Shown: positions 13,701 through 56,932, counted from the whole stretch's first letter. The stretch is DNA of 63,019 nucleotides, filler included, from Octopus bimaculoides (GCF_001194135.2; 7 parts of 7 records of this genome joined end to end with filler, not necessarily neighbours in it), one strand, 5' to 3'. Translations and numbers: made by a program. The notes: generated by a model not told the origin, from the letters alone.

Positions 13701-14126
13701 GGCCCTCTTCACAAGAAGATGCTCCCTTAACGCTTCTGCTGTGGAGGAAAACAACTTATACATAAATGCAATACTCTGAGCAAGAAGAGTTTTAATACCT
13801 TACTCAAAATACAACATAATGAGATATTAACTTGGCTTTTATCCAAGTGGTCGACAATTCATCTTTCTTGGTACTGTAAAACTGAAAAAACAGCAGAGAT
13901 AAAAAATAAAAAAAGGGGGTGTCTAGAAACTAAAATAGCATATTTGCAAAACTTTATCAAAATAATGTTTATATTTGCTTTAAGCTATTGAACTAAGCAT
14001 TAAATTCACATTCGAATTTAGCTCAATTGTCTGTTTAAATTACATAATATTTTCAAACTCATCAGCTTTGATTACAAACCAAACATTTCTTCACTTCAGT
14101 CCAAATTTGTTCTCTTTATACTTGTA

Positions 14127-20390: not shown

Positions 20391-21377
20391 GAATGAATAT
20401 GGCAACATTAGCAATATCTTAATATTAATAGAGCAAGTCTATCTCCTCACTAAACAACTTTCCTCTAAGTTGTACTTGGCAATCACTTGAAGCTAAAGAA
20501 TTCCTCAATCATATAATTGAATGAACTTTTTTAAACATAGGATTATCCAGTCAGCTAATCTAAGAGCTATGAGCAGAACATTCCCACTTTGAAATTCAAC
20601 ATTTCCATATCGTATTTGGGTGAATTTTAACCCAAATACCAATTGAAAAATAGTTAAAATTATTTGAATTAAGGAGTTGCAAGATATTAGTTGGTGCAGC
20701 CATTGTAATATATTCCTCCCTATTCAGAGAACATAGTTATGTGTTACTTTGTTAAGTTGGTTATGGCTTTATGTTCATCCGTTGGGTTGATTAAAGAAGC
20801 TCTCCTCCTACTTCGACAGTTGAGTTAAAAGTTAAGAAAATCTAGCTGTAGCAGTATGCAAATCAGGTTATAAAAACAATCCCACCTATCAAAGCATGTA
20901 AAACAATAAATAAAAAATTTATTTCATTAAATCATTTTATGAACACACTAAATAGTATTTTATGAACACACTATATAGAAAAAGGAAAAAAGTAGGAACG
21001 AGAGTAAGAGTAATAATCTAGAAAGCTTTTACTAATTGAAACTGAAGTAGTTTAAAAAAATAATAATAATAAACACTCAGCAGATTTTTGCACAGTTGAC
21101 ACTGGATATATTTCATAAGCAACAATCAATCACAAGTAAAATCAACCCAGCAGGAATATTGCACACATCTACTCCCCCTCTCCCAATTTTCAAGGACAAA
21201 TTAAATAATATAGAGAAAGTTGATATTTACAAAGATAGAGGATTTTGTTTCATAATGAAAGTTGATATATAGAATTTGGATTTTGTTGGCATTTATGAAG
21301 TTCTACAAATTAATGTAATCAATGGACACATTTTCAATTGTTAAGTGCAGAAACTGAGATACTCTTGTACTTGTTTC

Positions 21378-21477
21378 NNNNNNNNNNNNNNNNNNNNNNN
21401 NNNNNNNNNNNNNNNNNNNNNTTAATTAATTAANNNNNNNNNNNNNNNNNNNNNNNNNNNNNNNNNNNNNNNNNNNN
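21378..21477. other. Artificial assembly spacer N44-TTAATTAATTAA-N44
   Basis: Same structure as the 10762 spacer; palindrome at 21422-21433. Confidence 0.97.
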
Positions 21478-21609
21478 TTACTGTTAATACTTCATTTAGA
21501 GAATTAACATTGCTTGTTTTCACCTTTTCGATATCAGTGAAGAATTTCACTGGAAAAGTAGATATAAGATTGCCAGGTTTTTGTCTCTCTCACCAGGGTC
21601 AGTAGCTAT

Positions 21610-21654
21610 CGAACGCCGACGAAGGGAAATAACCCTGAAATCCGGATCCGTTCG
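21610..21654 (+). ncRNA. Minimal type I hammerhead ribozyme (Penelope/retrozyme-like), C3-C4 core variant
   Basis: CGAACG [CCGACGA] AGGG-aaataa-CCCT [GAAA] TCCGGA [TC] CGTTCG. Helix I 6 bp, helix II 4 bp, palindromic helix III ATCCGGAT, AUC cleavage triplet. Confidence 0.8.
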
Positions 21655-22174
21655 TGCTGCAGATCGTGGTGAGAGGGATAACTTCCCTTGGCAAACAGGA
21701 CACAGTCGTGTGTCGATAAGCCAGCTGGAGGAGATGTCCTCCTGGGGCTAAAAGCAACAGTAACATCCACCCCTAGGGGTCAGCCACACTTAAGTGGCAA
21801 TATACTACACTTTATATTATAATTGCTATGCATATGTCACTATTAAGGTTGTTTGGAGCCCTGCAATAGGTGTTCCAAGTGCATTAAAATGCTCAACCAC
21901 AAAGGATTATCAGAGGACACTTTTTTGTATTGACCCATTAAGGCTTGATGTACACTTAAGTGTACAAAATTAAACTGTCTATTGACTTTGAACAAGTCCC
22001 ATATTGGCCATAATTTTAGCTGACTTACTTTAAGTAGGTATCAAAATTTAATCAAATGCATTGTGGGATTCTCATGAAGTTCTTTCAAGACAGCAGTTTC
22101 AACTGGTATAGCTGTGAGGGAAGTTTCTGGTCACCTGAGCAGTTTTCCCTCAAAATATAGGCTAGTGAAGGCTT

Positions 22175-22493
22175 CTATCTATCTATGCGCCCCTTTCAAG
22201 CCTAGCCAGGCTTATGGGCCCAGTTTCCCAGTTTCTATGGCGTATGTGTCCCCCCACCCAGCTGGACAGGATGCCAGTCCATCGCAGCGTTACTCAAGAA
22301 TCAGGAAGAAACAGTGAGAGAAAGTTGGGGCTAAAGAGTACAACAGGGGTCGCTACCACCCTGCTGCCAGAGCCTCATGGAGCTTTAGGTGTTTTCACTC
22401 AATAAACACACACAATGCCCAGTCTGGGAATCAAAACTGTGATTCTCTGACCGCTAGTCTGCTGCCCTAAACACTGGGCCATTGCGCCTCCAC
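22175..22493 (-). mobile_element. tRNA-derived SINE, family 2 variant, with 11-bp TSD
   Basis: Head ggaggcgcaatggcccagtg; TSD agtgaaggctt at 22164-22174 and 22494-22504. Confidence 0.9.
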
Positions 22494-22805
22494 AGTGAAG
22501 GCTTACTTTTATTATTTTTTTCTAATTTGTATGTTTGTTTCTTGTTTTCTTCAATATCTAAAGTGTAGATCATCATGTAAATTTTTTATACACGTAAGTG
22601 TGCATCAGGAATATAAGGAATACAGGACATCAATGTTTACAATTTTTTGTTTGTAAGCACAGGATGTTTCAATGAATGCATGGAGCCTGAATGACAATGA
22701 TGTTTGGCACACAAGTTTTTTTCTGAGTCTTGACAGATATTTTATCATCATGTTCTACCACAAGTTATATTTTTTACCTTTCAGTCCCTTTTACAACCAA
22801 AGCAA

Positions 22806-24488
22806 AAATATGACACTACAAACTACTATCACACCCAATGGTAATGGAAGTGATGTTGATGATTATTCAGAAAGGGATTCAGAAAATGTGATCCTTGAAG
22901 TATGTGAATAGGAGTGTGAAATGGAAGATGAAGTGCTAGAGGAGAGCAGCTTGACTGAAACTGAAAGTGATTCACCTAAATCAACCCCAAAAGCTAAACT
23001 GCCAAAAATTTCAACTGCATCATCATCAACATCGTTTAACGTCCGCTTTCCATGCTAGCATGGGTTGGATGATTCGACTGAGGACTGGTGAACCAGATGG
23101 CTTCACCAGGCTCCAATCTGATTTGGCAGAGTTTCTACAGCTGGATGCCCTTCCTAACGCCAACCACTCTGAGAGTGTAGTGGGTGCTTTTATGTGCCAC
23201 CAGCACGAGGGCCAGTCAGGCGGTACTGGCAATGGCCACGCTCAAAATGGTGTTTTTTACATGCCACCTGCATAGGAGCCAGTCCAGCGGCACCGGCAGC
23301 GACCTCGCTTGAATGTTTTCTAACGTGCCACCGGCACAAGTGCCAGTAAGGCAACGCTGGTAATGATCACGCTCAAATGGTGCTATTTATGTGCCACTGG
23401 CACGGAAGCCAGACAGCTGCTCTGGCAATGATCACGCTTGGACGCTGCTGTTAGTGCTCCACTGGCACAGGAGCCAATGACTCCAAAAATAATAAAGAAA
23501 TCTAATTTGTCTTGGTAATCAAAGGAGTTTCAATTACCTCAATGTGATGTACTAGACAATCCATTGAAATTAACAGAGAATAGTAGGTCGAAAACAAAAA
23601 GTGCACCAATTGATTTCTTTGATCTTTTGTGATGATTAATTTTTTTTTTTTTTTCAAATTTATCACGAGCCAAACTTTTACAATATTCAAGCAACTAAAA
23701 TCAGTCATAGTCAGCAAAATCAAGTGAGCCATAGGTATTTTACTTTACATGAATATTTGTAAACTACCAAATTGAAAGATGTATTGGGGCAATCAAATCG
23801 CTGTGCTTATCATTTCCACAAGCTTGACTCAAAATCATTTCAAATAAATTATATCCATATTATGTTTTTAGTGACAACAAAATTGTAATTTGTGGATGGT
23901 CTGGCAATTGCTGCCTTCTAACAATTTCCAACTTTGTTGTAAGAATCCTGTATCAGAGGCCAACTGCTATGAATCACAAGGAGCTGAAAGTACTTTGTCC
24001 TGCAAGTGTCAAAATCTACAACCACTACATAGGTGGGGCAGATAAAGCTGAAATGCTCTTCTCACTTTATCCAGTGATGCCATTTCCTGCATACCAGGAA
24101 ATGGTATCACCGGATGGCTTTTCATTTGATCCTGTTAGCTATTGCTAATACATTTGTCATCTTTAGCCAACTCAGAGGTACAAATTATTTGGTTGATTTC
24201 CATGCTAATACATGCAGAATTTTGTTCTAGGGAGAAAACAATAGTGACAGTGAAGATGAAAACAACATTCTTGCCAAGAAAGTACAATCATTGAAAGTAT
24301 CAGCAGTTCCAGGGTCAGTTCGTTTTCACAATATTGGTCACTGGCCTATACAATCCACCACTAACTGGTGCAAGATGAACTGGTGTAGCTGCCAGACAAA
24401 ATTTGTCTGTTCCAAGTGCCAAGTGTATCTGTGTGTGGCGAAAGTTGGAAAAAAAAGTTTACCCAAAGCTCATGGAGTTGCTTTATGA
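22806..24488 (+). mobile_element. Decayed piggyBac (PGBD2/3-like) transposase remnant, interrupted by an RTE 3' end
   Basis: Acidic N-terminus SDVDDYSERDSE, decayed YNHY(M)GGVD-type motif, WYHRMAFHLILLAIANTFVIF, C-terminus VPGSVRFHNIGHWP..CKMNWC..TKFVCSKCQVYLC. Confidence 0.85.
23020..23480 (-). mobile_element. RTE-type LINE 3' end with ~60-bp internal tandem repeats
   Basis: catcatcatcaacatcgtttaacgtccgctttccatgctagcatggg... is the reverse of the 10862 copy; repeated gccac..gcac..gccag..ctggcaatg units. Confidence 0.88.
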
Positions 24489-26726
24489 ACATCTTCCACT
24501 ATGAGCTCTAATTCCCATTTAACAATGCTAGTTAATCCCTACTCGTATGTAGTTACAAATAATTTCATAAGGAACTTCACTTTTCCTTGCTAAAATAACT
24601 CATTATGAGATATAAACACAAATTACGCAATACTTTTCTCTATTACAAATCCTAATTTCTCTAAAACAATTCCTGTCACTCTCACTTCATTTATAGTTAT
24701 TGAACATTTCATAAAGAATCTCACCTCCCCTTGCCTCTAGGTCCACACTCTATATGCTTAACATAAATTAGTGCAATAATGATATTCCATGGTATATTTT
24801 TCCACCTAATTTTATTAACTAGTATATCAAACTCTGGAATTCTACATAACTCTTTTATGTTACTAAAACTGGTAATATGAGAATTTGGTTGAGCCTAGTA
24901 CATTTCCCTACCTTTTCACTCTTGACAGCTCACTTATTGCTCTGGTTACTTTCCAATTCCTCTGAGTATTATGTTATATCCTAACTCTTGCCACCTATAT
25001 ATTTTCATGTTTCTTTTTTCTATAAGTGCTTTTTTGTGCATATGAACTTATGCATCTTTATACACCTAACTTTTGTTTACCTATCTCATTTCAACTTTTT
25101 GTCACACAATTTCTCATCTCTGCCATTAATTATCTTCTACTTTACATATATACTTGATATTATTCCATTATTTTAATATCATACAATAGTATTAATTTGT
25201 GAAGATTTATATCTAAGTGTGTATGTATCTGTACTGATATTTAATTCTTTTTTTTTTAGTGAGTTTTTTTTTGTTTTTTAGTAGACATATATTTGTATGT
25301 TTGGCCATGTGTATATCTAGGAACATGTAAGTTTATATATTTATATGTACATAATCATGCATATGTATATATATATATATATGCATGAATATTTATATAT
25401 ATATATATATATATATGAAAGAAGTGGCAATAGCTGTGGAAACTACTTGAGTTTATCATGATTAAAGTTTAGTTCATATTCAAGCAAAAAGGAGTGGAGT
25501 AAATTTATAAACAAAAAATGAATTAGATGAGAAAATTTCAGAGTTGGAGAAGAAAGTTTAGTGCATAATTGTGATGACATAAAGAAGACACTGTATGTGA
25601 GTCCAGTCTTGATACATGGAGAATGTAGAATCTACCCAGCTTAGGTGAAAGCTCTTCAAGTTGGAGCAGTATGTTTTTCACAAAGTGAGTGTTATTGTTG
25701 TATATTTAATTTTATTCAACACATAAGGAGTGATTCATTTATTTCATCAATGAATATGGTTTGTTTAGACAGTACAGGAGTCAAGATACAAAGTTAAGTT
25801 ATCTAGATTACTGACATTCATTTTGAACCTTTATTACAGCAGTCATATTCCTACAAGGCATGCACAAATACTACTTATCCTAGTCCTATTGTCAGAAGGT
25901 GTCACTCAACTTCAGAGTTGATGAATTGATGGTATTATAAGGGTTAGATATTCAGCTGTATAAGTATCTATGGCCTTCACCAGCCAGGGTTGACTATGTA
26001 ACTGTACCTGTATGCACAGGCCTGGACAAGGGCTTTAGAAGACTGACATTTGTTCATGCATGCAAGCCTCCCCACTTGACACCACCAATGACATCCAAGA
26101 AAAAGACCACTGCCTCAGAACCACCACAACTTGACATAAGTATTGGTACAGGCATTGCTTTCAGAACACAAAAAAAGCTGGAACAAAATGCAAAGAACTG
26201 GAACATGAGGCATCTTGCCCAACACCAACAATCGTGCCAATTACCACCCTGGATTGGTATTTTTTTTTATTGAGTGAAAAGGATGAAAGATAAAGATGAC
26301 CTCAGTAGGGTTTGAACTCAGAACACATATTTAGAATAAATACTATGAGGCATTCTACCCATCTAACAATTTTGCCAATTCAAGACCAAATAAGTAAGTA
26401 ATTACTCCAACAATATACAAATATCCAAATTGAGATGTTTGAATATGTAAGATATAAAAGCCAATTAATAAATCCTGAGTTCAAATCATATTGCAATGAA
26501 TGTCTCAGCAGATTCAATTAATTCCACAGTGATTCAGATTGGCTAACTATTGGTAACAGGTACTGGGTCAATGTAAAACTGAAACTTGTGACAGACTAGT
26601 ATGTTATTAAAGGAGGGAAGAGGAGAAGAAAAGAAGAAAATTGTGTGTCACTATCCACACCACAAAGCCAGAAGTAAACAGTAACCTTCAAAAGTACATC
26701 AAGGAATAGGAAACAGATTTACACAT

Positions 26727-27140
26727 ACTCTCTTTTTACTCTTTTACTCTTTTACTTGTTTCAGTCATTTGACTGTGGCCATGCTGGAGCCCCGCCTTTA
26801 GTCGAGCAAATCGACCCCAGGACTTATTCTTTGGAAGCCTAGTACTTATTCTATCGGTCTCTTTTGCTGAACCGCTAAGTTACGGGGACGTAAACACACC
26901 AGCATCGGTTGTCAAGCGATGTTGGGGGAACAAATGCAGACACACATACACACACATATATATATATATATACATATATACGATGAGCTTCTTTCAGTTT
27001 CCGTCTACTAAATCCACTCACAAGGCTTTGGTCGGCCCGAGGCTATAGTAGAAGACACTTGCCCAAGGTGCCACGCAGTGGGACTAAACCCAGAACCATG
27101 TGGTTGATAAGCAAGCTACTTACCACACAGCCACTCCTAA
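26727..27140 (-). mobile_element. tRNA-derived SINE, family 1
   Basis: Full-length copy with (ttttactc)n tail; CpGs largely retained. Confidence 0.92.
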
Positions 27141-27264
27141 CTGCAAAAAAAAAAAAAAGTCCAAACATCCAAACTAGGATAGCACAGATGAGTGCCAAAA
27201 TTGTTTACAAGAGAAACAAAGGTACAAAATCTTGAAAGAAAATAAAAATTGAAAGAAAACTTAC

Positions 27265-27433
27265 ATGTTCACAATGAATGGATGGTGAATGGATTCTAGG
27301 ATTTCACGTTCACTTTTAACATGTTCAGTTTGTTTCAACCGCACAACTGCAGCAATAGACATCATCTTCAGTGCATAATATTCTTTGGTGTCTTTGTGAC
27401 GCACTAAAACAACACGACCAAACGAACCAGCAC
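27265..27433 (-). CDS. PRKX: Internal exon of a PRKX / PKA-C3-like cAMP-dependent protein kinase (subdomains I-IV)
   Basis: Acceptor tttacctttctcatctgcag, donor AT|gtaagt, 169 bp. Encodes GAGSFGRVVLVRHKDTKEYYALKMMSIAAVVRLKQTEHVKSEREILESIHHPFIVN (GxGxFG, ALK, RLKQxEHV). The MSI..V.RLKQ segment is closer to PRKX than to PKA-Calpha. No other kinase exons found in the window. Confidence 0.9.
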
Positions 27434-27466
27434 CTGCAGATGAGAAAGGTAAACATCAAACTTTAT

Positions 27467-29050
27467 GTATGTATGTATGTATGTATGTATGTATGTATGT
27501 ATGTATGCTTGTATGTCATTATTTAGTTTTATTTCAAGATTTCTTGCCAACAGAGAAAGAACCGTTTCTAACCTAAACCCAAGGCTTCTTCACTAGAATT
27601 TCAACAACATCAACAGGGTATTTTTGCATGTGAGTGTGTCAGTGGATTAGGGCCGTTGCTAAGCCCATGCAACCCTTGCAGTCCTCCGCAGTTGAGGGGT
27701 CCCTAAGATCAAAGTACATATATGAGTCATCTATTTACTTTGGTTAAGAAGTTAACTGAAAATTTCAAGCCAGACGAGGAAAATATATGAGGGTGTACCG
27801 TAAATGAATTTAAAATTTAAAAAGTAAATGAATAAAGCTTGACAATGAATTCCCTAGGGAGGTAAAAGAAAAATGAAAGAAATCCCCAAAAAGAAAATAA
27901 GAACAACTTCAAAAGAAAAGACAAGAAAAAAGTGGGGATGTATACTAATACTTACATACAAACATACACACACAGGCATACGTATGGAAAGGGTGAATTT
28001 CCAAGGTTCCACCCTGCCCCCTCCATTTTCCACAGAAAAAATGCTTTTCCCACACATTATGAGGTCAATTAAGACGATTTCAACAAAAAAATGCTGGAGA
28101 CAGGGGAATTTCCAAGGTCACCCCCCACCTCCATTTTCCATGGAAAAAATGCATTTCTGACAGCTTACAAGGTCAACTAAGATGATTGCACANNNNNNNN
28201 NNNNNNNNNNNNNNNNNNNNNNNNNNNNNNNNNNNNNNNNNNNNNNNNNNNNNNNNNNNNNNNNNNNNNNNNNNNNNNNNNNNNNNNNNNNNNNNNNNNN
28301 NNNNNNNNNNNNNNNNNNNNNNNNNNNNNNNNNNNNNNNNNNNNNNNNNNNNNNNNNNNNNNNNNNNNNNNNNNNNNNNNNNNNNNNNNNNNNNNNNNNN
28401 NNNNNNNNNNNNNNNNNNNNNNNNNNNNNNNNNNNNNNNNNNNNNNNNNNNNNNNNNNNNNNNNNNNNNNNNNNNNNNNNNNNNNNNNNNNNNNNNNNNN
28501 NNNNNNNNNNNNNNNNNNNNNNNNNNNNNNNNNNNNNNNNNNNNNNNNNNNNNNNNNNNNNNNNNNNNNNNNNNNNNNNNNNNNNNNNNNNNNNNNNNNN
28601 NNNNNNNNNNNNNNNNNNNNNNNNNNNNNNNNNNNNNNNNNNNNNNNNNNNNNNNNNNNNNNNNNNNNNGCACTAAAAGTCATACAACAGCCCTGCGGTG
28701 CATGTGCAGGTTTGTATGTTTTGTTTTATGTATGTTAGTTGCATGTCATGCATATATATACTTAAATGATAAAAATCTGGAAAGTTTTACAAATTGTTAC
28801 AGTTCCAGTGATGGCTTAGGTCTGTAGTCTTCAAATCAGCTTTCTCCTTTCTGGTTCTGATAAGCCTAATTTCTCGAGATTGGTACTTAGGCAGTGTGTT
28901 ACATATTCCAGTGCCCCAATAATTAGCAATATAAACCTGAACTTATAATCTGGGTAGATATCTCAATAGTTCAGTGTAGATATCTTCTTTTTCATTGATT
29001 TTTATGTTAACATCCACTAGGCAGCTTGTATGTATGTATGTATGTATGTA
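27467..29050 (-). mobile_element. 5'-truncated copy of the 5882-9030 R4/Dong family, flanked by (CATA)n and interrupted by other repeats and a gap
   Basis: 28704-29005 is the reverse complement of about 8540-8865 (VDVNIKINEKEDIYTELLRYL...IIGAL). 27518-27710 matches the 3' UTR at about 8925-9030. Confidence 0.75.
27995..28192 (+). repeat. ~111-bp tandem repeat running into an assembly gap
   Basis: gaatttccaagg...ctccattttcca...aaaaaatgc...aggtcaa.taaga begins at about 27995 and again at about 28106. Confidence 0.8.
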
Positions 29051-29396
29051 TGGATGGATGGATGGATGGATGGATATATGGATGCATGCATGCATGCATG
29101 GATGCATGCAGGCATGTGCAACAAACTTGATACCATGAGCAGGCTTGAAATTAGATTTGTACATATTACCAGCTGCCTTCAGAGCACCAAGCCTGACAAT
29201 TTGAAGAACTTTGCCAGCATCTATTTCCTAAAACTATGACGTTTCTGATCCTTTCCAAATGAAATATTTATAGTAAAAATAGTTCCCTGACTGCAGAAGC
29301 AATAATATTACAAATCAGTGAATAAAAGATTCTATTCTAATAGGAAAAAGACACAAGCCCACAATTAACAACTGGTTTGAATTAATGAGCAACAAT

Positions 29397-29778
29397 GTTG
29401 TTGGCACTCCATCGCATACGACGTCGAGGGTTCCAGTTCATCCGATCAACGGAACAGCCTGCTCGTGAAATTAACATGCAAGTGGATGAGCACTCCACAG
29501 ACACGTGTACCCTTAATGTAGTTCTTGGGGATATTCAGTGTGACACTGTGACAAGGCTGACCCTTTGAATTACAGGCACAACAGAAACAAGAAGTAAGAG
29601 TGAGAGAAAGTTGTGGTGGAAGAGTACACCAGGGCTCACACCATCCCCTGCTGGAGCCTCGTGGAGCTTTAGGTGTTTTCACACAATAAACACTCACAAC
29701 GCCCGGTCTGGGAATCGAAACCGCGATCCTATGACCGCGAGTCCGTTGCCCTAACCACTGGGCCATTGCGCCTCCACT
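29397..29778 (-). mobile_element. tRNA-derived SINE, family 2, with 12-bp TSD
   Basis: TSD atgagcaacaat at 29385-29396 and 29779-29790; head ggaggcgcaatggcccagtggttagggc with B-box ggtttcgattccc. Confidence 0.93.
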
Positions 29779-30307
29779 ATGAGCAACAATAGATATAAAT
29801 GAATATCATTACTCAAAAAACCTGACCCAACTCCTCCTCACAAAAAGGCCTCACTCCACCCAGATATTTAGACAATGAAACACAATACACAGCCCTGAAT
29901 TTCTACACTTTGACTGATTCAAAATATTTTTAGATATTTAAATATCACAAAAAAGGATTCAACACACCAGCACAAAGCAAATTCATACGACTCTCTCACA
30001 TTTCAGTTTCTAAAGAAGTCATTAACTAAAAAATGTCAGAATAAAATATTTCCAAGATATCATCTGAATATATTTGCTATTTTTGACATTTATGTTCTGT
30101 GAGCAATGTTATCAAATACATTGATTTTCGATATATTTCTCAATACCTCAGACAAATTACAACGCATACACACACATTTATATATATATAAGAGAAAGCT
30201 GTTATGAAGCTCAACAAGACGTGGTAGTACACCGGAAACTGTCAAACCATCTAACCCATGGCATCATGGAAAACGAATGTCAAATATTAGTGTTGATTAA
30301 AAATATT

Positions 30308-30347
<40 letters not shown>

Positions 30348-30546
30348 NNNNNNNNNNNNNNNNNNNNNNNNNNNNNNNNNNNNNNNNNNNNNNNNNNNNN
30401 NNNNNNNNNNNNNNNNNNNNNNNNNNNNNNNNNNNNNNNNNNNNNNNNNNNNNNNNNNNNNNNNNNNNNNNNNNNNNNNNNNNNNNNNNNNNNNNNNNNN
30501 NNNNNNNNNNNNNNNNNNNNNNNNNNNNNNNNNNNNNNNNNNNNNN

Positions 30547-30602
<56 letters not shown>

Positions 30603-31154
30603 CACAATGGTCCAGTGGTTAGGGCAGTGGACTCACGGTCAGAGGATTGTGGTTTCATCTGTTTATGTTATGAGTTCAAATTCTGCAGAGCCTTTCTTCT
30701 TTTTGGAGTCAATGAAATAAGTACCATTTGAACATTGGGGTTCAATGTAATTGACTTACTACCACCCTAAAACAAAATTGTTGGCCTTGTGCCAAAATTT
30801 GAAACCAATATTTACCTGTTCATCACTGTTTCTTGAGGAACTCTAAGTAGCCTCTCTCAGAACCTTGGGGTTCCAGTGGAGGGACAGAATCCAGGTTGGG
30901 AAACACCCTATAATGTGTAAGCATTAACTTGGATATAAACTACAATAACAGGTATTTCACCACTTTCCAAAGCACCTTATTTAGTACACCACCACTACCA
31001 CAGACAATTATTATGTTAACACTACCTCCTCCACAGTCAGCTTCTATACCACCCACCGCACCATAAGCAGTTACTCAAACACAAACAAAATGTCAAATTA
31101 TCCTGCTTCCATAGTGTTGTAACATGTGTTTACAGAAAACTGGCAGCACATTCC

Positions 31155-31181
31155 AGGTTCAGTTTCACAATTGGCACCACC

Positions 31182-31231
<50 letters not shown>

Positions 31232-31272
31232 CACCACCACCACCATCACCACCACCACCACCACCACCACTA
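31155..31272 (+). repeat. Compound (CAC)n/(TAC)n microsatellite
   Basis: Directly visible. Confidence 0.95.
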
Positions 31273-32140
31273 TTTTACTACTGCTAAATTTACAATCATT
31301 GCAATTGTTGCTACATTTTCATACCCTCCTACCCTACAAAGTCTACTTTTGGAAATCTGTTTCGCTTCTTTCCAAGTAGTTTGACAATATTGTGACACAT
31401 ATATCTTAACACTCTTACGATTGTGCATGTGTGAGTTAATTGTGTAGTGGTAGTATATGTGGGGAGGGGGAGAGTATGCATATAAGATTGTGCATCATTC
31501 TCTTTCTTAATATAAAAGAAATCAAGTGGATGTGTAAGTTAGCTTGTGCATGCTGATAGATAAATACACATATATGTATATTGAAATATGTATGAGTATG
31601 TGTCACGTACAAGATGAAAGGATAACATAACCAGGATTTAAAGGCTCCATGTAATCTACCTTATGGCCATCGACCAAAAAATACATACAACCTTAAGATT
31701 GATTCCACAAAGCTTTAAATTTCAGACATGTAATCTTGTTTACCTTGTATATGACCAACATTTATTCAACACTACACACTAGCACAATGGAGCACTAAGC
31801 TTATGTTTTTCTATCACAAACAAAAAAATATAAAGGTGTCTACTCTTTTATGTCTACTCTTTCCAAGCAAATATTGATCAGATGAAACTTTTTGAGGCAA
31901 TATTTTTGGCCTTCTAATCCCCAATCCCTACTGGTTTCTTCAAAGATCCAAGAATCCAGGTGTAGAAGTCAGGAAGCTTCGAGCAGTCTGTAGAAGGTAT
32001 AAAAAAACAACTTTCAGGAACAATAATGGTTTATTGATGTAGAAGGTTGTAAATTCTTCCCATATCAAAGATCAATAAGCTAAAAAAAGTTATTTTATAG
32101 TTCACAGTTAGCAACTGGGGTTGTGTGTATGCGAATAAAA

Positions 32141-32467
32141 ATCCAAATTGAGGGAATGGGATAGGTAAAATCCAGGCTGCATATGTTTCCTAGCTAGCAT
32201 AACCTCAGGAGTAGCAATTACTCAATAAGGGGTACTCCACTAGCTACTCAACAGGCATATTTTTGATCAAACCTGTGAGTTAACATGGGATGCCCCCTTG
32301 ATGACAACATAACCTTCATTTGACCAAGGTATCTTTGATTTGAGGAGTACTAGTTGAGTACCCTACATTGAGTAATTACTACCCCTAAGGTTCTGCTAGC
32401 TAGGAACATATATAACTTGGATTTTGCCTAAATGTAACTTGGATTTTACCATTCCCTAAATTTGGAT
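32141..32467. mobile_element. MITE-like element with ~110-bp imperfect inverted repeats
   Basis: Left atccaaattgagggaatgg..tcctagctagcataacctcaggagtagcaattactcaat pairs with right attgagtaattactacccctaaggttctgctagctagga..ccattccctaaatttggat. Confidence 0.75.
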
Positions 32468-33061
32468 ATGCATATATATATATATATANNNNNNNNNNNN
32501 NNNNNNNNNNNNNNNNNNNNNNNNNNNNNNNNNNNNNNNNNNNNNNNNNNNNNNNNNNNNNNNNNNNNNNNNNNNNNNNNNNNNNNNNNNNNNNNNNNNN
32601 NNNNNNNNNNNNNNNNNNNNNNNNNNNNNNNNNNNNNNNNNNNNNNNNNNNNNNNNNNNNNNNNNNNNNNNNNNNNNNNNNNNNNNNNNNNNNNNNNNNN
32701 NNNNNNNNNNNNNNNNNNNNNNNNNNNNNNNNNNNNNNNNNNNNNNNNNNNNNNNNNNNNNNNNNNNNNNNNNNNNNNNNNNNNNNNNNNNNNNNNNNNN
32801 NNNNNNNNNNNNNNNNNNNNNNNNNNNNNNNNNNNNNNNNNNNNNNNNNNNNNNNNNNNNNNNNNNNNNNNNNNNNNNNNNNNNNNNNNNNNNNNNNNAA
32901 CCATAAGAAACTATTTTTAATTTTAATCTAAAGCAATTTGAAGGTTATAACCTCCTGACAGAACAAGTAGGTTCAACATGCAAAGTATGAAGATTTTAAC
33001 CTAGTTGAAAGTCATTTGGCCTCTGTGCAATCTGAACCACACATACTCTCTCAGTCAAATT

Positions 33062-33276
33062 GTTTACTCTTTTACTCTTGTACTTGTTTCAGTCATTTGA
33101 CTGTGGCCATGCTGGAGCACCACCTTTAGTCGAGAAAATCAACCCCAGGATTTATTCTTTGTAAGCCTAGTACTTATTCTATCGGTCTCTTTTTGCCGAA
33201 CAGCTAAGTTACAGAGGCGTAAACGCACCAGCATCAGTTGTCAAGCGATGTTGGGGGAACAAACACAGACACACAA

Positions 33277-33308
<32 letters not shown>

Positions 33309-33480
33309 TTACATATATACGATGGGCTTCTTTCAGTTTCTGTCTACCAAATCTACTCACAAGGCTTTGGTCGGCCCGAGGCTATAGTAGAAGACACTTG
33401 CCCAAAGTGCCACACAGTGGGACTGAACCTGGAACCATGTGGTTGGTAAGCAAGCTACTTACCACACAGCCACTCCTGTG
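33062..33480 (-). mobile_element. tRNA-derived SINE, family 1
   Basis: Full-length match to the 26727 copy. Confidence 0.92.
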
Positions 33481-34938
33481 CCTTACATATATAAAAATTT
33501 AGAAATAGTTTCTAATTCATATGCTATGTGGTATATAACTAAAGTCTGACCAATGGAAGAAACTGAAGAGCCTTGATGTAATCTAGGATTTTCTTTTAAT
33601 ATTTATTGACTTCAGTTGAATTACTGTGTAACATGATTTTTGCCTTTGGGTAGCAACTGTTATTTTCTATTTGCTTACCCCTAGAAAGTATGAATAAGGA
33701 CTAATATTTGCATTTGTTACATTTATTCAAACCCCAAAGAATCTCTCTCAACACATAGCTATGATGCTTCTCCACTACATCTGCTCATGATCAGAGATGC
33801 ACATATTGTCAGCCTCTAAGGGATATGCTCAAGTAGTAAAGGTCAAGCAACTGACAACCAAGTCTGTGATTTTGAGCAGAATATTTGCTTTAATGGTATT
33901 TCTGTCTCAGCAACCCAGTGCTGAATTTATCCAAAATATAATGGAAAATAGGTCAGTTTCAAAACATTGATGTCCAGGTCACAAAAGCAAGTAGAAAATA
34001 ACACTTAGTGGCCATATACAGTGTATATTCTAAATCAGCTTTGACCAAAATTAAAGTCAAAACTGGCACAATGAATTATTACATATGCTATCACTAGCAT
34101 GCTGTCCAACTGCTGTTCTGTGCTTACCAGGAATTTTCCTAATGAGTATCTACTTACTTAGCATTCTATACTTGCTTATTATTCAAATTTTACTTAACAG
34201 TTGTTCAACTGCTGGTTCAGGAATATTTCATTTAGACTACAATTCTGAGTTGTATTATCTCTATTGTATAGTATGTTCTCTCAGAAAAGTAGAACATATG
34301 AGTTTCAATTCTGCAGGCTAATACAAGCAAAATAAACAGAGGTCTTTTATAAATTTTATAAACTAGTTACTTATTCAATATTCATTTCTCTTCATAACAC
34401 ATAAATTTATTCTATTTTATGAACTTTATTCAATTGATTTTTCCAAACACAGATATTCACCAGTCTTGCTGGATTCTGGTATTTTACTTTGCTCTTATTG
34501 TCATGAAAGATTTAGAATCTTGACCTGTAATTCATATACTTGATTTTGTGGCTTAATCTGGTGTCATTTATTTTGTGGGGGTCACAAACTACCTTTTTTC
34601 CTTTTCATTTATCGTATTCAAAATTGCTCCTCAGAATGAATTCATCTTCTTTTTCCCTGGCAATATTTTTCTAATTTGATAAATAAATAATTGATCCTGA
34701 ATTGAGGAGTTAAAATATCTGACACTCCTCACTTGTGATCTCTTTAAAACCAACACGCTGTTTTTATTTACCTCAATGAGATCTTATTACAATTACAAGT
34801 GAGTCTGCTATGAATCTGGTTAAAGCAAATCTAGATGACTCAGTCTTCAGCAGTATCACAATAATAATTAAACCCAAAAAAGATATGCTTCTTTTTTAAT
34901 ATGGTTAATCTAATTTTTAAGTTAGGTTCACCAATATG

Positions 34939-35324
34939 TTGTATTGTTGGCACTCCATCGCTTACGACGTCGAGGGTTCCAGTCGATCCGATCAACGGAA
35001 CAGCCTGCTCGTGAAATTAACATGCAAGTGGATGAGCACTCCACAGACACATGTACCCTTAACGTAGTTCGGGAATATTCAGCGTGACACAGTGTGACAA
35101 GGCTGACCCTTTGAATTACAGGCACAACAGAAACAGGAAGTAAGAGTGAGAGAAAGTTGTGATGAAAGAGTACAGCAGGGTTCGCTACCATCCCCTCCCG
35201 GAGCCTTGTGGAGCTTTAGGTGTTTTCGCTCAATAAACACTCACAACGCCCGGTCTGGGAATCGAAACCGTGATCCTATGACCACGAGTCCGCTGCCCTA
35301 ACCACTGGGCCATTGTGCCTCCAC
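34939..35324 (-). mobile_element. tRNA-derived SINE, family 2, with 11-bp TSD
   Basis: TSD tcaccaatatg at 34928-34938 and 35325-35335. Confidence 0.93.
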
Positions 35325-35686
35325 TCACCAATATGACATGAATGAAAGACAAAATTACTAAATCCCTTTAAATTCAATATTTATTCTCTTGTTTTCAAAA
35401 TTAAATGAATAGCAGAATATTTCATAAGAAATGCAGTCGTGAAAGGTTTACACAACTCCTTAAACAAGAAATATTAACAAAGTTATATAGCGGTGTAAGA
35501 TAACATCTTAAAGTTTGTTACAACAGAATGAAATACAGAAACCAGAATACTAAATAGCTGCATACATACATGTATGTATGTAAGGTGAAGATATGAAGGA
35601 GAAAGAGTGAATTTGATAAGAAGTGGACAAAGATAAAAAGGAAAGTGACAAAGAGATTAGTAAATAGTGGGGGGAGGGGTAAACTT

Positions 35687-35965
35687 AATGAAAGAGAAAA
35701 AGCACTACCATAGCCATGATAGATGTTGTGGATGAGGACCTATGTCAAGATGGCATTATACAGAGCCAAAATCCTCTCCAGCATTAGAAATATCTTAACA
35801 TTACTGACAAAGATTTACTTAAAATGTTTGGTAAATCCTTGTCAGTAATGTTACATAGATATTTTTAAGGTTGGAGAGAACACTGGCTCTGTATAATGCC
35901 ATATCGACGTAGATTCCCACCCGTAGCATCTATCTTGGCTATAGTAATGCTTTTTCTCTTTTATT
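35687..35965. mobile_element. Fold-back (palindromic) MITE-like element
   Basis: Arms of about 135 bp (taatgaaagagaaaaagcactaccatagcc...acattactgacaaagatttac versus gtaaatccttgtcagtaatgt...ggctatagtaatgctttttctcttttatta) around a ~11-nt loop. Confidence 0.85.
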
Positions 35966-35984
35966 ATTATTAATGTGAGCTGGC

Positions 35985-36345
35985 AGAATTGTTAGCACAC
36001 CAGACAAAATGCTTAGTGACATTTCATTTGGCTCTTCACATTCTGTCTTCAAATATTGCTGAGCTCAGCTTTGCCTTTCATCTTTTCAGGGTCAATGGAA
36101 TAAAGTTCTGGTCAAGTACTTGGGTCAACGTAACCAACCAACCAACCCCCTCCCCTCAAAATTGCTGTCCTTGTGCCAAAATTAGAAAGAATTATTATAA
36201 AGTTGGTGAGTTGGCAGAATTGTTACTATGTCAGATAAAATGCCTAGCAGCATTTCTTCCAGCTCTTTACAGTCTGAGTTCAAATGCCGCCAAGGTCAAC
36301 TTTGCCTTTCATTCTTTCAGGGTCAATAGAATAAAGTGCTAAGAT
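35985..36345 (+). mobile_element. Two tandem old SINEs, family 3
   Basis: tgagctggcagaatt...gttcaaatgccgccaaggtcaactttgcctttca repeated twice. Confidence 0.8.
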
Positions 36346-36603
36346 CAGTACCAAGATAATTTCTTGGCTGAAAAGTTGGCTGCTCCTGTCTATGACAGTA
36401 TACAGCAATTATCTTATACAATTGACTTTCTGTCTATTCTATTTAGCTGGAATTTTCTTATCAAAGACAGAACTAGAAGAAATTCTTAATTTTTTATTTT
36501 TTATTTTTTTCCAATTCAAAGACTAGTCTACAAAGGTAGCTAAGTTAGCAAGCAGGAAAAATAACTATTTAAACAAAAACATTAGAAACAACAACTGCAA
36601 AAC

Positions 36604-36636
<33 letters not shown>

Positions 36637-37091
36637 CTGCACTCAGTAATGCAGAAAAGCATGTAATAAAAATAAGACTACTAAGAAATAGTGATAATGA
36701 TCATGATGGTGATGGTGATCATGAAGATAAGTAGGTGCAGAAGGAGACCTTAGAGTTCAACTGATACTTATATCTATGTTGAAATGATGAGAAGGAAGTC
36801 AACCTCGGTCTTATTTGGACTCAGGATATAAAAATAGGGAGGAAATGCTGCTATGCATTTTGTTTGACATGTTAAATAGTTTCAAATGTTGGCACATGGC
36901 TAGCAGTTTTAAGAGGAAGGGGTTAGTTGATTACATCAGCCCCCCAATACTTAACAGACAGTTTATTTTATCAATCCTGAAAGGATGAAAGCAAAGTCAA
37001 TCTCAGCAAGATTTCAACTCAGAATGTAAAAACCCAGGACTAATGCCATAAAGCATTTTTTTCTGACCTGCTAATGATTCTGCCAAATCAC

Positions 37092-37125
<34 letters not shown>

Positions 37126-37270
37126 TCTTTCGTTTATTGGTCACACTGACCCATATATACCTGATGTTTAATAAAAAGCATTTACGGTATATTTAGAGAT
37201 GTACAAATATAGTAATATAAAACTGAAGGATACTAAACATTATTCACGTGTACATGTGTGTGCATGTATG

Positions 37271-37330
<60 letters not shown>

Positions 37331-37533
37331 AAGAATAATAATAAATGGAGCAAAACGCATATAATCAATAATTTCCTTTAATTTCTACACATGTTTCAAA
37401 AATTATGTGCACTCTACTCCAAAGAAGTGAGAGATGCTGGTATATACACATGTAGTGACAGGTGAAATACCTCTAAGCATTTCGTCTGGCGTGCTAATGA
37501 TTCTACCAGCTCATCGCCTTAATAATAATAATG

Positions 37534-37616
<83 letters not shown>

Positions 37617-37900
37617 CACAGTAGTTGTAGGGGCATTGGGAACACTTAGCAACCAGGTTTGAGAAATTTATTAGAGGAACTGGGATTGACATGAGGGTAG
37701 AACATGGGATTGACATGAGAGTAGAACATGCTCAGAAACCTACTTTACTGGGGACAGCTAGGATTTTGAGATTGGCACTCAGATGTTAAGCGTTGAAGAA
37801 AGAGATCCTGTAAGACCCTTGACAACAGGTTGTTGTCAGCTCTTACAGAATTAGTCAGAGCAAGTGGAATTAAGAGCTCTGAGAAGTGAAATGACAAAAT
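37617..37900 (+). mobile_element. R4/Dong-like 3' end in (TAA)n
   Basis: VVVGALGTLATRFEKF...LLGTARILRL* flanked on both sides by (TAA)n; contains a 24-bp internal tandem duplication. Confidence 0.8.
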
Positions 37901-37918
37901 AATTATAATAATAATAAT

Positions 37919-48985: not shown

Positions 48986-49033
<48 letters not shown>

Positions 49034-49782
49034 AGCATACACACACATAAACATATATATGTGTAAGTAGTTAGTGTGTTTGTGTAGAACACTATATAGC
49101 TGTACATGAAATCTATTAAAGTTCTTTGAGTGCATTCTCTAGATTGTTGCACACATTTCTACTACTAAATGTTTTCATAGCATTTATGATTCAAGTTGTC
49201 ATAGCTAGTGGCAAGATCGTTGTTGTGTGTATTGTGCGAAAATTGTATAGTGTAGAGGCTGTGTGATATGGAACTGTGCGAAGCCGCATGGGGGATTATA
49301 TCGTTTGATATTGCTTGGTGCTGTATGAGGAAGAGGTGCGGCGTGTGGTCGTGTGAAAGTTGTGAGGTGAGGATATTTGTGTGTGTGTGTAGTTGTGTCA
49401 GATTGCAGGGGAGAGTTGTGTGGAGTTGTGCGGTGACGGGATTGTCTTGTGTGGTGTGATCTCGTGCAGCGAGGTGTGCAAGGTGTGTCGAGTAGGTGGG
49501 AGTTGCGTTCATAAGTGGAGCTGTACATAAACTTTGTACTGTGTCAAAGAACATTTGGGTTGATGTGTGAGACCTGTTGATAGGTAGGTGGTAGTGAGAA
49601 TGATATGTGAAAATGTTTATGATCTATGGTGTGTGTGTGATCGGTGGTGTGTATGTGATTAATGTGTGTGTGTGTGATCGGTGGTATGTGTGCATGTTGT
49701 GTGTGGTGTGTATGTGTGATTAATATATATGTATGATGAATGCATGTATCATGCATATATGTATGCATGCATGTAGATATGA

Positions 49783-49816
<34 letters not shown>

Positions 49817-50392
49817 NNNNNNNNNNNNNNNNNNNNNNNNNNNNNNNNNNNNNNNNNNNNNNNNNNNNNNNNNNNNNNNNNNNNNNNNNNNNNNNNNNNN
49901 NNNNNNNNNNNNNNNNNNNNNNNNNNNNNNNNNNNNNNNNNNNNNNNNNNNNNNNNNNNNNNNNNNNNNNNNNNNNNNNNNNNNNNNNNNNNNNNNNNNN
50001 NNNNNNNNNNNNNNNNNNNNNNNNNNNNNNNNNNNNNNNNNNNNNNNNNNNNNNNNNNNNNNNNNNNNNNNNNNNNNNNNNNNNNNNNNNNNNNNNNNNN
50101 NNNNNNNNNNNNNNNNNNNNNNNNNNNNNNNNNNNNNNNNNNNNNNNNNNNNNNNNNNNNNNNNNNNNNNNNNNNNNNNNNNNNNNNNNNNNNNNNNNNN
50201 NNNNNNNNNNNNNNNNNNNNNNNNNNNNNNNNNNNNNNNNNNNNNNNNNNNNNNNNNNNNNNNNNNNNNNNNNNNNNNNNNNNNNNNNACTTCAAGTACT
50301 GTTCTCTCTTTTTTCAGCACATCACACTCTTTACCACTTCATACTAAAAATATCCGCCTATGGATATAATAATAGATTACTTTATTTTTTCT

Positions 50393-50441
50393 GTCTCCGA
50401 TGAAGGGAAGTACTGGATCTTCCCTGAAACAGCTGTAAGAC
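50393..50441 (+). ncRNA. Minimal type I hammerhead ribozyme (Penelope/retrozyme-like), C3-C4 core variant
   Basis: GTCT [CCGATGA] AGGGAAG-tactggat-CTTCCCT [GAAA] CAGCTG [TA] AGAC. Helix I 4 bp, helix II 7 bp, palindromic helix III ACAGCTGT, GUA cleavage triplet. Confidence 0.82.
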
Positions 50442-50775: not shown

Positions 50776-52697
50776 GCACCTGGCAAAATCATTCAAATCA
50801 GGAATCGGACAACATGACCCACTCGAGGAGAGAGTTATTGTTTCCGGGGACATATCCAGGTGTAGGAGGTTTATCCGGGATTTTTTTAAGGAATTTGTTC
50901 AATGACTTCTTGAACTTTATGAGGTTTGTTTCTGCTTTAATGTGTTTTGGTGTAATGTTAAAGAGAGCGGGGCCGATTGAGATGAAATAATTGTGCCGTA
51001 TTTTTGTTATGTGATACGAGTATGATTTATGTTGTGGGCGGATAGCACGGGGTTCAAGTGTTGGGTGTATCTTAAAGGCGATGGCAATATCATTTGGGCA
51101 ATGCCGATGGAATATTTTCCACATCATACAGATGGTGTAGCGCTCATGGCGGTGTTGGAGGGAATAAAGTTTGAGCTTTTCTAGTCGACACCAACAGTCA
51201 AGGCCTGTCATACTATCTATTCTTTTTTGTAAGTGACCTTTGAGGTGCTTCAATTTTCATGATACTTTGTTTCGTGTGTGGAGACCACAGTGGGCAACAG
51301 TAACCAAGGTGCAGTCGGGCAAAAGTAAAGAAGGAAAGGATAATGTTGTGGTTATCTCTCGACTGGAAAATTCTGAGAACACATTCTGCGGACCGTGTCA
51401 ACTTTGCTGTTTATATGAGCGGCCCAGCTTATGATGGTGTCCACCATTACTCCTAAGTCTCTGATGTTGTTGGATGCCATGAAAGTTTCACCTGAAGGAA
51501 GAGAGTATGGGAGTTTCAGAGTGTCCTCTTTTCCGAAGTGGATTAACTCAAATTTGTCCTCGCTCAGCAGCATATTATTCTTTTCCGCTCATTGGATGAC
51601 AGCCAGTAGATCTGACTGAAGGCATGCTCGGTCACTTTCTTCATTGATGACCTTCTGGATCTTGGAATCATCTGCAAAGATTCTTATGTTGTTGTACTTG
51701 ATGACGTCAGTAATGTCATTGATGTAGATGATGAAAAGAAGTGGGTGCAGCACAGTGCCTTGTGGAACACCACTGCTGACTTTGGTTGTGCTTCATTTTT
51801 CGCTTTCGGCTACAATGTGTTGGGTTCTGCCTGTCAGGAAACATTTGATCCATTGTAGTAAATTTCCAAAGACACCGATGTCGGATAGTTTTTTTGAAGA
51901 GGATCTTATGATCTACCCTACCAAAGGGCTTGCTGAAATCAAGGTAAATGACATCAGTATTCGAGCCTTCTCTCAAAGCTCTCAAAGTGTCATCAAGGTG
52001 ATGCAAGAGCTGCATTAGGCAGTTCCTTCCATCACAGAACCCGTGTTGGTTGGGGTTCAGCCGTCTGTTGCTTTCAAGAAAGTGGGTTATTCGTGATCTC
52101 ACCACCCTCTCAAATACCTTGATGATATGAAGGTGAGCGAGATCGGCCGGTAGTTCACTGCAAGGGATTTGTTTCCCTTTTTGAAAACTGGGACAACAGA
52201 CTGGGACAGCAAGTTTTCAGGTATATAACCAGCATCCAGTAAATTCCTCCACAGAATAGCAAGTTGGTGTCGGCACACCTTCAGGACACAAGCAGGGAAC
52301 CTATCAGGGCTTACAGCTGAATGGTGTTTGATTTCGTTTATTGCCGCTAAGACATCAGGGGCGCCAAAACGTTATGTCCGATATAGTTGGTTGAGGATTA
52401 ACATCACTGATACAGTCCAGATCGGCCATATCAGAATTGCTAAAAATAGAGCAGTACTTTTTCTGCAGTATCTCATTCATGGTTTTGGCATTATCTTGGA
52501 GATCGCCATTTTCATTAGAGGGCCAACAGTGGAGACAGTGGCCTTGTGTTTTTCCGCAAAAGAGAAGAGCACTTTGGGGTTGAGTTTGACTTTCTCAACG
52601 GCCCATTTCTCCTGAGCTGTTCTTTGGTTATTGATGATGGTCTTCATGCATCGTTGGAGGTTATACTTTCTTGATTCGAGCAGGGAGACAGACGTCG
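50776..52697 (-). mobile_element. Decayed 5'-truncated CR1-clade LINE (RT)
   Basis: NPNQHGF, TDVIYLDFSKPFGRVDHKIL, GVPQGTVLHPLLFIIYINDI, IFADDSKI, IRDLGVMVD, YCCPLWSPH, LKLYSLQHRHERY. Confidence 0.92.
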
Positions 52698-55910: not shown

Positions 55911-56932
55911 TTATTACATGATTTCCCTTAGGGTTAGCGATACTAATAACCTGCTGTTAGAGCTCAATATACATGTGCTTCAGAATAAAACGTTGAGTAC
56001 AGAGAGTAACACAAATTAATTCAATGAGAAGGAAACAAGAATTATGTTATCACTTCATTAATTTACAGCTGTTTCTACTCTAAGAAGCAACACACTCACG
56101 GCGAAGTACTTGTGTGTCGTTTTATAGCTTCTTCGGATTATTTAAAATGATGTGAATATTTGAAAGCAATGACCTAAAAAAATGACAACACCGAATGACA
56201 AGATTTTACTAAATGTTCTGTGCGTATATGTACAGGTCGTCGTCGACTTGCGACCTATCCGAATTACGACCGATCGACTTTGCGACGATTGGTGCGCCAG
56301 CTCCCAGCAGCAATAATAAATAGTCCAGTTGAGATCTAATGGGCTTAATTTCTCTAAAATTAACCCGTGTCTACGAATGAGCAAACGCTTCCCTTCGGTT
56401 TGGTTATCGATCGCCATTGTGTTAAATGACTATCCTGTCGCAGAGACATCGAGGCAACCTCGTATTTGTTTATAAGACGACTGCTTGAGACTCCGTAATT
56501 TCTGACTAACGCCAGTATAATAGTATAATACAGAATGTCGTGTGTGACTTTTACCTGAGAATGTAACTTAAGAATGTAAAAATATAAAACAAAACTACTT
56601 ATGATTGACTGCAGAATAAAACCGGATATATAAATCTCTGTTCCCCTTATCATTACGATCGGTCAGTCGGAACCGTGGAGCAATCTCGAGGATGACCAAA
56701 CCGAAATTGCAAAGATCATCTGGAACTCGACTGAGGAAAGAAAACTCCGAATGACTCGTCCTTGTTTACTTTGTANNNNNNNNNNNNNNNNNNNNNNNNN
56801 NNNNNNNNNNNNNNNNNNNNNNNNNNNNNNNNNNNNNNNNNNNNNNNNNNNNNNNNNNNNNNNNNNNNNNNNNNNNNNNNNNNNNNNNNNNNNNNNNNNN
56901 NNNNNNNNNNNNNNNNNNNNNNNNNNNNNNNN

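What the first reader, a model, noticed from the sequence alone, without database searches (positions are those of the whole stretch)
21610..50441. A family of octopus hammerheads sharing a non-canonical C3-C4 catalytic core
Three motifs with unrelated helices (21610, 43426, 50393) all read CCGANGA instead of the textbook CUGANGA, while a fourth (46679) is canonical. The stems differ completely yet keep pairing, so U4C looks like a maintained lineage feature rather than decay. Four motifs in about 50 kb of called sequence suggest a very large genomic population that strict-consensus searches would miss. This is the best candidate here for an under-described system: several Penelope/retrozyme families using a variant hammerhead, possibly producing circular RNAs.
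Basis: partly seen in the sequence, partly recalled or inferred. Interest (0 to 1): 0.8.

Follow-up and report, generated by a model that had tools for sequence, protein, structure and literature searches.

The report
Octopod retrozyme with variant C4 hammerhead
A high-copy, transcribed 345-base tandem repeat and several likely Penelope-transposon remnants in an octopod genome carry hammerhead RNA motifs with C where the textbook core has U; they likely still cut RNA in pairs, but cutting is untested.

Summary
Partly confirmed. The motifs at 21610 and 50393 are complete type I hammerheads with C4. 46679 is real and has U4, with a one-base flaw. 43426 has C4 but lacks G12 and scores within chance. 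A further C4 motif (56136, minus strand) was missed. The helices are not unrelated: 21610 and 50393 share helix II arms, and 50393 and 56136 share helix III. Reads show that 21478-21815 is one unit of a ~345-nt head-to-tail, high-copy, transcribed repeat, that is, a non-LTR retrozyme-like element. C4 appears to be its majority letter in two organisms. The other four motifs sit 67-157 nt upstream of microsatellites, like Penelope 3' ends, but no Penelope ORF was found. Folding predicts the lone motif is locked off (C3-C4-G5 pairs with the palindrome) and two copies form the active dimer. No cleavage ends, circles or covariation were shown. U4C is known from a viroid and from virome hammerheads; it is absent from the 56 published Penelope representatives, whose search fixed U4. 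Lünse 2017 could not be read. The scan noted a C4 Penelope-linked hammerhead before, in a euglenid (unchecked). Verdict: new variant of a known kind.

The parts
21478..21815 (+). One unit of a ~345-nt head-to-tail repeat (non-LTR retrozyme-like); starts at an assembly gap, so the local copy number is unknown
   Evidence: Depth falls from ~1-2 million to under 3,000 past 21815 in DNA contigs; joint 21815->21480 in 91 of 1021 and 68 of 948 RNA reads and 10 of 7990 DNA contigs, 9 letters between; fold of 21570-21830 z -8.0
21610..21654 (+). Type I hammerhead, C4 core (C3 21616, C4 21617, G12 21637, N17 21648); helix I 6 bp, helix II 4 bp, palindromic helix III 21640-21647
   Evidence: N17 is A in 160 of 274 and 154 of 248 RNA reads
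21585..21677 (+). Long interrupted extension of helix I enclosing the hammerhead
   Evidence: MFE -49.7 kcal/mol, z -6.7
21690..21800 (+). Run of short hairpins shared with other repeat families and highly abundant in the second organism
   Evidence: fold; depth peak and loose ends at 21684, 21719, 21793, 21800
50393..50441 (+). Intact Penelope-type type I hammerhead, C4 core, 7-bp helix II, 4-bp helix I, 8-nt palindrome, A17; microsatellite 67 nt downstream
56050..56155 (-).
46679..46739 (-). U4 hammerhead, Penelope-type, one extra C between helix II and G12; microsatellite 103 nt downstream
43426..43460 (-). Minimal-type hammerhead remnant with C4 and G12->A (predicted dead); score in chance range; microsatellite 122 nt downstream
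27265..27433 (-). Context: single exon of a host PRKX/PRKY-like kinase; the motifs likely lie in its introns
   Evidence: 87% identical to an Argonauta hians protein named PRKY; only this exon found by tblastn; AG/GT splice sites

Best explanation
The 21478-21815 stretch is one unit of a transcribed, high-copy head-to-tail repeat whose hammerhead has C at core position 4; it is likely a non-LTR retrozyme that cuts itself in pairs, and the other motifs are likely 3' ends of Penelope-like elements, mostly from the same C4 lineage. Steps: (1) tandem arrays exist in DNA and RNA crosses the unit joint (shown). (2) Two neighbouring motifs pair through the AUCCGGAU palindrome to build an 8-bp helix III and free the core (predicted by folding). 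(3) Cutting 3' of N17 at successive copies would release 345-nt monomers (inferred), probably more slowly than with U4; a protonated C could keep the U-turn (analogy). (4) A host ligase would close circles (from literature on other animals). (5) In a lone monomer C3-C4-G5 is predicted to pair with the CGG of its own palindrome, switching the ribozyme off. (6) A Penelope reverse transcriptase/endonuclease would copy the RNA into TA-rich microsatellites (inferred).
For: Head-to-tail joint in 91/1021 and 68/948 RNA reads and in DNA contigs; unit 336+9 nt; contigs of the element average ~8,000-14,000 depth against 25-42 for flank contigs; 25 DNA contigs run on into (TA)n at 21817. Size 345 nt, GC 45% and 59% paired fit metazoan retrozymes. 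Position 21617 is not among the 40 best-supported of 189 differences, the weakest of which reaches ~43% in its best run, so C4 is probably the majority letter in all 4 runs, both organisms. N17 switches C->A, which keeps the NUH rule. Cofold of two copies gives the active dimer topology at -102.9 vs 2 x -49.7 kcal/mol; the monomer has helix III probability 0.0 and the C4:G21644 pair 0.99; C4 adds 2.2 kcal/mol to that off-fold. 4 of 4 Penelope-type motifs have a microsatellite 67-157 nt downstream, background 0.13-0.20 each; microsatellite targeting by Penelope clades is described. U4C stays functional in vivo in a viroid; C+ can replace U in a U-turn.
Against: No place where many RNA molecules begin or end, and no depth dip at the cut site. 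The RNA joint also exists in DNA, so it does not show circles; libraries look unstranded. RNA depth over the core (~240-280 in ~1.9 Gb read) is not above what passive read-through of hundreds to thousands of copies would give. Absence of the 11 core positions from the 16 listed differences inside the unit is expected by chance (~0.6), so selection on the core is not shown. 11-14 C>T places per run are hidden and could include 21617 as a minority. Several common changes break predicted pairs, including 21652 in helix I in the second organism. In a mutational scan of another hammerhead all CUGA-turn changes but the C3-G8 swap had low activity, and U4C considerably lowers activity in vitro. No Penelope RT or GIY-YIG was found. 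Only the 21610 family was tested with reads.
Confidence: 0.6

Rival explanations
1. C4 killed or crippled the ribozyme in a founder; the repeat spreads as a satellite- or SINE-like passenger of Penelope enzymes without cutting, and the core persists only by descent.
For: No cleavage ends or depth dip; CUGA-turn mutants have low activity; the monomer is predicted to misfold; Naiad Penelope elements spread without canonical hammerheads; 2 of the 4 C4 motifs in the window are damaged.
Against: C4 occurs with intact helices in two different architectures (21610, 50393) whose loops, helix I and palindromes differ; the common N17 change keeps H; C4-G5 is a CpG in a window with CpG o/e 0.50, so it would tend to be lost, not kept; U4C is viable in a viroid.
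Confidence: 0.25
2. C4 is a selected attenuator: slower catalysis and a stronger off-fold protect circles and host pre-mRNAs that carry these intronic copies.
For: C4 strengthens the off-fold by 2.2 kcal/mol in the 21610 motif. The two intact motifs are antisense to the host kinase gene and the three sense-strand ones each have a flaw.
Against: The off-fold also forms with U4 (-47.5 kcal/mol) and the CCG:CGG pairing is not available in the 50393/56136 palindrome. The strand pattern has n=5, chance 1 in 10.
Confidence: 0.12
3. C4 arose by independent decay of U4 in old copies, or the motifs are chance matches.
For: 43426 and 54653 score in the chance range and 43426 has a second core change.
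Against: Three motifs exceed all 200 shuffles; C4 is probably the majority across reads of the 21610 family; 3 or more of 5 motifs changing the same base at 3-15% per site has probability 0.0003-0.027.
Confidence: 0.03

Closest known systems
Metazoan non-LTR retrozymes (Cervera & de la Peña 2020, PMC7229834; results parts 2-3 and passages read; supplement unreadable)
   Same: Non-coding head-to-tail unit of 150-450 bp, GC under 50%, type I hammerhead with 6-bp helix I and 4-bp helix II, self-paired fold, transcribed; mussel units are 350-390 bp.
   Different: C at core position 4 and an A-U pair opening helix II; 8-nt palindrome with no predicted monomeric helix III, so dimer-dependent like amphibian forms; no octopod example in the parts read; circles not shown here.
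Hammerheads of Penelope-like element pLTRs (Cervera & de la Peña 2014, PMC4209133; parts 1-2 of 4 of the text and the whole supplement PDF read)
   Same: 50393, 56136, 46679, 43426: long helix II, short helix I, palindromic helix III, U-rich flank, mostly solitary copies; Saccoglossus(2) and Aedes rows have the same build.
   Different: 0 of 56 representatives in Fig. S3 have C4 (the descriptor fixes cuganga); the described core variant is U3-A8; no Penelope ORF linked here.
Natural U4C hammerhead variants (viroid variant cited in Perreault 2011, PMC3088659, section 8 and passages read; deep-sea virome hammerheads, PMC13481778, passages read)
   Same: Same substitution in the CUGA turn.
   Different: There a rare variant or a degenerate position in RNA replicons; here probably the majority state of a high-copy genomic retroelement family.
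Short-stem-III hammerheads that cleave as dimers (Lünse, Weinberg & Breaker 2017; not held, seen only as title and as summarised in PMC6765202)
   Same: Penelope-associated, palindromic short helix III, dimer cleavage.
   Different: Unknown: its alignments may already include C4 or cephalopod members.

Membership tests
Type I hammerhead ribozyme | Three-way junction with helices I, II and (dimeric) III in type I order | tested here: met
   21610, 50393, 46679 above all shuffles; dimer topology for 21610
Type I hammerhead ribozyme | Canonical core CUGANGA / GAA / A15.1-U16.1 / H17 | tested here: not met
   U4 is C in 21610, 50393, 56136, 43426; all other core positions are met in the first three; G12 is missing in 43426. 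U4C is a known tolerated variant
Type I hammerhead ribozyme | Match to an Rfam hammerhead model | tested here: not met
   No hammerhead row (150 of 155 rows shown); the U4 motif is missed too
Type I hammerhead ribozyme | Site-specific self-cleavage | not testable with these tools
   RNA-seq shows no end pile-up, which neither shows nor excludes it
Non-LTR retrozyme | Short (150-450 bp) head-to-tail non-coding repeat, low GC, one type I hammerhead per unit | tested here: met
   345-nt unit with joints in DNA contigs; GC 45%; no Pfam hit in 5 overlapping frames
Non-LTR retrozyme | Transcribed | tested here: met
   1021 of 12.9 million and 948 of 12.0 million reads laid, some belonging to related families
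Non-LTR retrozyme | Accumulates as circular monomeric RNA | tested here: inconclusive
   Back-joints in RNA also exist as DNA
Non-LTR retrozyme | Target-site duplication and mobilisation by a Penelope element | not testable with these tools
   The 5' edge is an assembly gap; no genome held
Penelope-like element pLTR | Hammerhead with long helix II, short helix I, palindromic helix III near the 3' end | tested here: met
   microsatellite 67-157 nt downstream in 4 of 4
Penelope-like element pLTR | Upstream RT + GIY-YIG ORF | tested here: not met
   No GIY-YIG in 292 of 304 frames scanned; region upstream of 56136 blank; gaps lie within 110 nt upstream of 50393 and 46679. Solitary motifs are the published norm

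The most novel reading that the evidence does not exclude
Octopods carry a whole Penelope/retrozyme lineage in which U4C became the fixed, active core, hidden from every CUGANGA-based survey, and in the retrozyme C4 doubles as a switch that locks single circles off and lets tandem transcripts cut.
Probability: 0.25. Interest if true: 0.72.

Novelty: new variant of a known kind. Interest (0 to 1): 0.5.

Why it matters
If active, this is a natural, family-wide replacement of a 'strictly conserved' hammerhead nucleotide. It gives a ready test of whether a protonated C sustains the catalytic U-turn, and of whether slow or switchable cutting suits a retroelement. It also means published counts of animal hammerheads, built on a fixed CUGANGA, undercount whole families. 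If inactive, it shows that a retrozyme-like repeat can spread without a working ribozyme, which bears on the open question of what these ribozymes do for Penelope elements.

Tried and rejected
Whole-genome count of U4 vs C4: no genome held. Rfam: no hammerhead. Self-BLAST: no second copy of any motif in the window; no tandem repeat of the unit in 20500-22500. Penelope ORF hunt: 292 of 304 frames against Pfam gave no GIY-YIG; RVT_1 hits at 51592-52216(-) lie downstream of and opposite to 50393 and look LINE-like (label recalled). A by-eye GIY-YIG resemblance upstream of 56136 failed in 4 searches and is rejected. Candidate at 54653 dropped as chance-level. PMC11014351 (passages) had no U4C mention. 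Lünse 2017, Ambrós & Flores 1998 and Nelson & Uhlenbeck 2008 are not held, so no U4C rate constant could be cited. Earlier-finding look-ups by place and by sequence were empty.

Full report
OBSERVATION. The window holds 57,164 called bases. A strict type I descriptor with any base at position 4 finds two motifs, 21610-21654(+) and 50393-50441(+), both C4 and both with an 8-nt palindromic helix III; 200 shuffles gave 0.02 hits on average and no palindromic hit. A relaxed score, designed after seeing the motifs, lists 7 hits: 46734(U4) 15.5, 50397(C4) 15.0, 21616(C4) 14.0, 56136(C4) 9.0, 43456(C4) 6.5, 54653(U4) 5.5, 54113 2.0. No shuffle reached 13; scores of 9 or more occurred 0.15 times and 6 or more 0.93 times per shuffle. 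So three motifs are certain, one missed C4 motif is probable, and 43426 is a chance-level remnant with A in place of G12. The helices are related, not independent: 21610 and 50393 share AGGGAA...CCCU, 50393 and 56136 share GAAACAGCUGUA, and all four C4 motifs continue with AG. Rfam shows no hammerhead.

HOST CONTEXT. One exon at 27265-27433(-) with AG/GT ends is 87% identical to an Argonauta hians protein named PRKY, which fits an octopod. No other exon was found by tblastn, so the motifs likely lie in long introns.

THE 21610 MOTIF IS PART OF A TANDEM UNIT. Runs holding 21480-22060 come from two coded organisms. Four runs were laid at 80% likeness. DNA depth is about 1-2 million over 21480-21815 and 70-115 beyond 21940. 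The summed depth is no copy number, but element contigs average about 8,000-14,000 depth against 25-42 for flank contigs, so there are at least hundreds of copies and probably thousands. A joint from 21815 back to 21480 appears in 91 of 1021 and 68 of 948 RNA reads and in 10 of 7990 DNA contigs, with 9 letters between: a 345-nt head-to-tail unit. 25 DNA contigs continue into (TA)n at 21817. The unit is 45% GC and 59% paired as a circle; 21570-21830 folds at z -8.0. These features match metazoan non-LTR retrozymes, which a 2026 preprint derives from Penelope pLTRs (10.64898/2026.07.22.740005; part 1 of 5 and passages read).

IS C4 THE FAMILY STATE? One search shows 40 of 189 differences. Position 21617 is not among them, and the weakest shown reaches about 43% in its best run. 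If the list is ranked by share, which the tool does not state, C is the majority at position 4 in all 4 runs, including the second organism (depth 4,511 there). A U4 minority is not excluded: 11-14 C>T places per run are hidden. N17 is A in 160 of 274 and 154 of 248 RNA reads, still an allowed H. Against over-reading: the absence of 11 core positions from 16 listed differences in 336 nt has chance about 0.6, and several common changes break predicted pairs, so neither selection on the core nor covariation is shown. C4-G5 is a CpG in a window with CpG o/e 0.50, so decay would favour U4, not C4.

THE OTHER MOTIFS. 50393, 56136, 46679 and 43426 have the Penelope build of Cervera & de la Peña 2014. 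All 4 have a dinucleotide microsatellite 67-157 nt downstream of N17; the background is 0.13 per site window-wide and 0.20 beyond 40 kb. Microsatellite targeting is described for Neptune, Naiad and Chlamys elements (PMC8557442, passages). No Penelope ORF was found: 292 of 304 frames against Pfam gave no GIY-YIG, and the region upstream of 56136 was blank in four searches. These four were not tested with reads, so their family state at position 4 is unknown.

MECHANISM. For the 21610 motif alone, helix III has probability 0.0; instead C3-C4-G5 pairs with the CGG of the palindrome (0.86-0.99), 2.2 kcal/mol more stable than with U4. Two copies fold to the active dimer topology, an 8-bp intermolecular helix III with a free core, at -102.9 against 2 x -49.7 kcal/mol. 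This is the known dimer model. The likely cycle is tandem transcription (shown), dimer cleavage at N17 (inferred), ligation to circles by a host ligase (literature) and copying by Penelope enzymes (inferred). U4 forms the CUGA U-turn; a protonated C can replace U in another U-turn (PMC4105743 and PMC6061696, abstracts and passages). Results against: RNA-seq shows no end pile-up and no dip at the cut site; the back-joint exists in DNA; libraries look unstranded; RNA depth is compatible with passive read-through. In a mutational scan all CUGA-turn changes except the C3-G8 swap had low activity (PMC9901934, passages).

WHAT IS KNOWN. U4C is reported for a viroid hammerhead, lower in vitro yet sufficient in vivo (PMC3088659), and C/U degeneracy at this position is reported in deep-sea virome hammerheads (PMC13481778). 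In the Penelope survey 0 of 56 representatives have C4, and its descriptor fixes ^cuganga, which confirms that such searches would miss this family. Searches that found no report of an octopod or C4 retrozyme: 20 of 205 listed; 18 of 19 listed. The library lacks Lünse 2017, and the supplements of PMC7229834 and of the bioRxiv preprint could not be seen; any of these may already hold C4 or cephalopod members. An unchecked note of this scan describes a C4 (with U3-A8) Penelope-linked motif in a euglenid.

VERDICT. Real motifs of a known kind, with a probably family-wide C4 core that I did not find in print for animal retroelements. Retrozyme-like identity of the 21610 unit about 0.9; C4 as its majority state about 0.85; still catalytically used about 0.65-0.7. 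New variant of a known kind; interest 0.5.

Noticed in passing
window 27265-27433 (-): Single exon of a PRKX/PRKY-like kinase; the neighbouring exons were not found in the 63 kb, implying introns of over 27 and 35 kb unless exons fall in gaps.
   Followed up: partly
window 21616, 50397 (+) vs 43456, 46734, 56136 (-): The two intact hammerheads are antisense to the host gene; the three sense-strand ones each carry a flaw. n=5, chance 1 in 10.
   Followed up: partly
window 21690-21800: Hairpin module shared with other repeat families (distinct loose ends) and far more abundant than the hammerhead part in the second organism; may be the signal recognised by the mobilising element. One contig joins it to a telomere-like repeat.
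   Followed up: no
window 54646-54709 (+): Possible decayed U4 hammerhead, score in chance range.
   Followed up: partly
window 50801-52216 (-): Broken reverse-transcriptase ORF (RVT_1, E 2.8e-07), LINE-like by recalled motif, unrelated in position to the hammerheads.
   Followed up: partly
window 5941-8697 (+): Fragments that look by eye like a decayed non-LTR retrotransposon with a restriction-like endonuclease (label recalled); no Pfam hit at 0.001.
   Followed up: no
window 14231-14464 (+), 20124-20354 (-): DDE transposase fragments (DDE_1 E 9.5e-06; DDE_Tnp_1_7 E 0.006).
   Followed up: no
window 62574-62646 (+): tRNA match above the Rfam gathering score (47.6 bits); gene or SINE head not checked.
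   Followed up: no
window 21811-21930: A separate low-copy repeat abuts the 3' end of the unit (small depth peak).
   Followed up: no
window 10762-10861, 21378-21477, 41633-41732 and others: A 12-nt TTAA-repeat spacer between two runs of 44 N (seen at 21422-21433; six such gap pairs), an assembly join mark; one sits directly at the 5' edge of the unit.
   Followed up: partly
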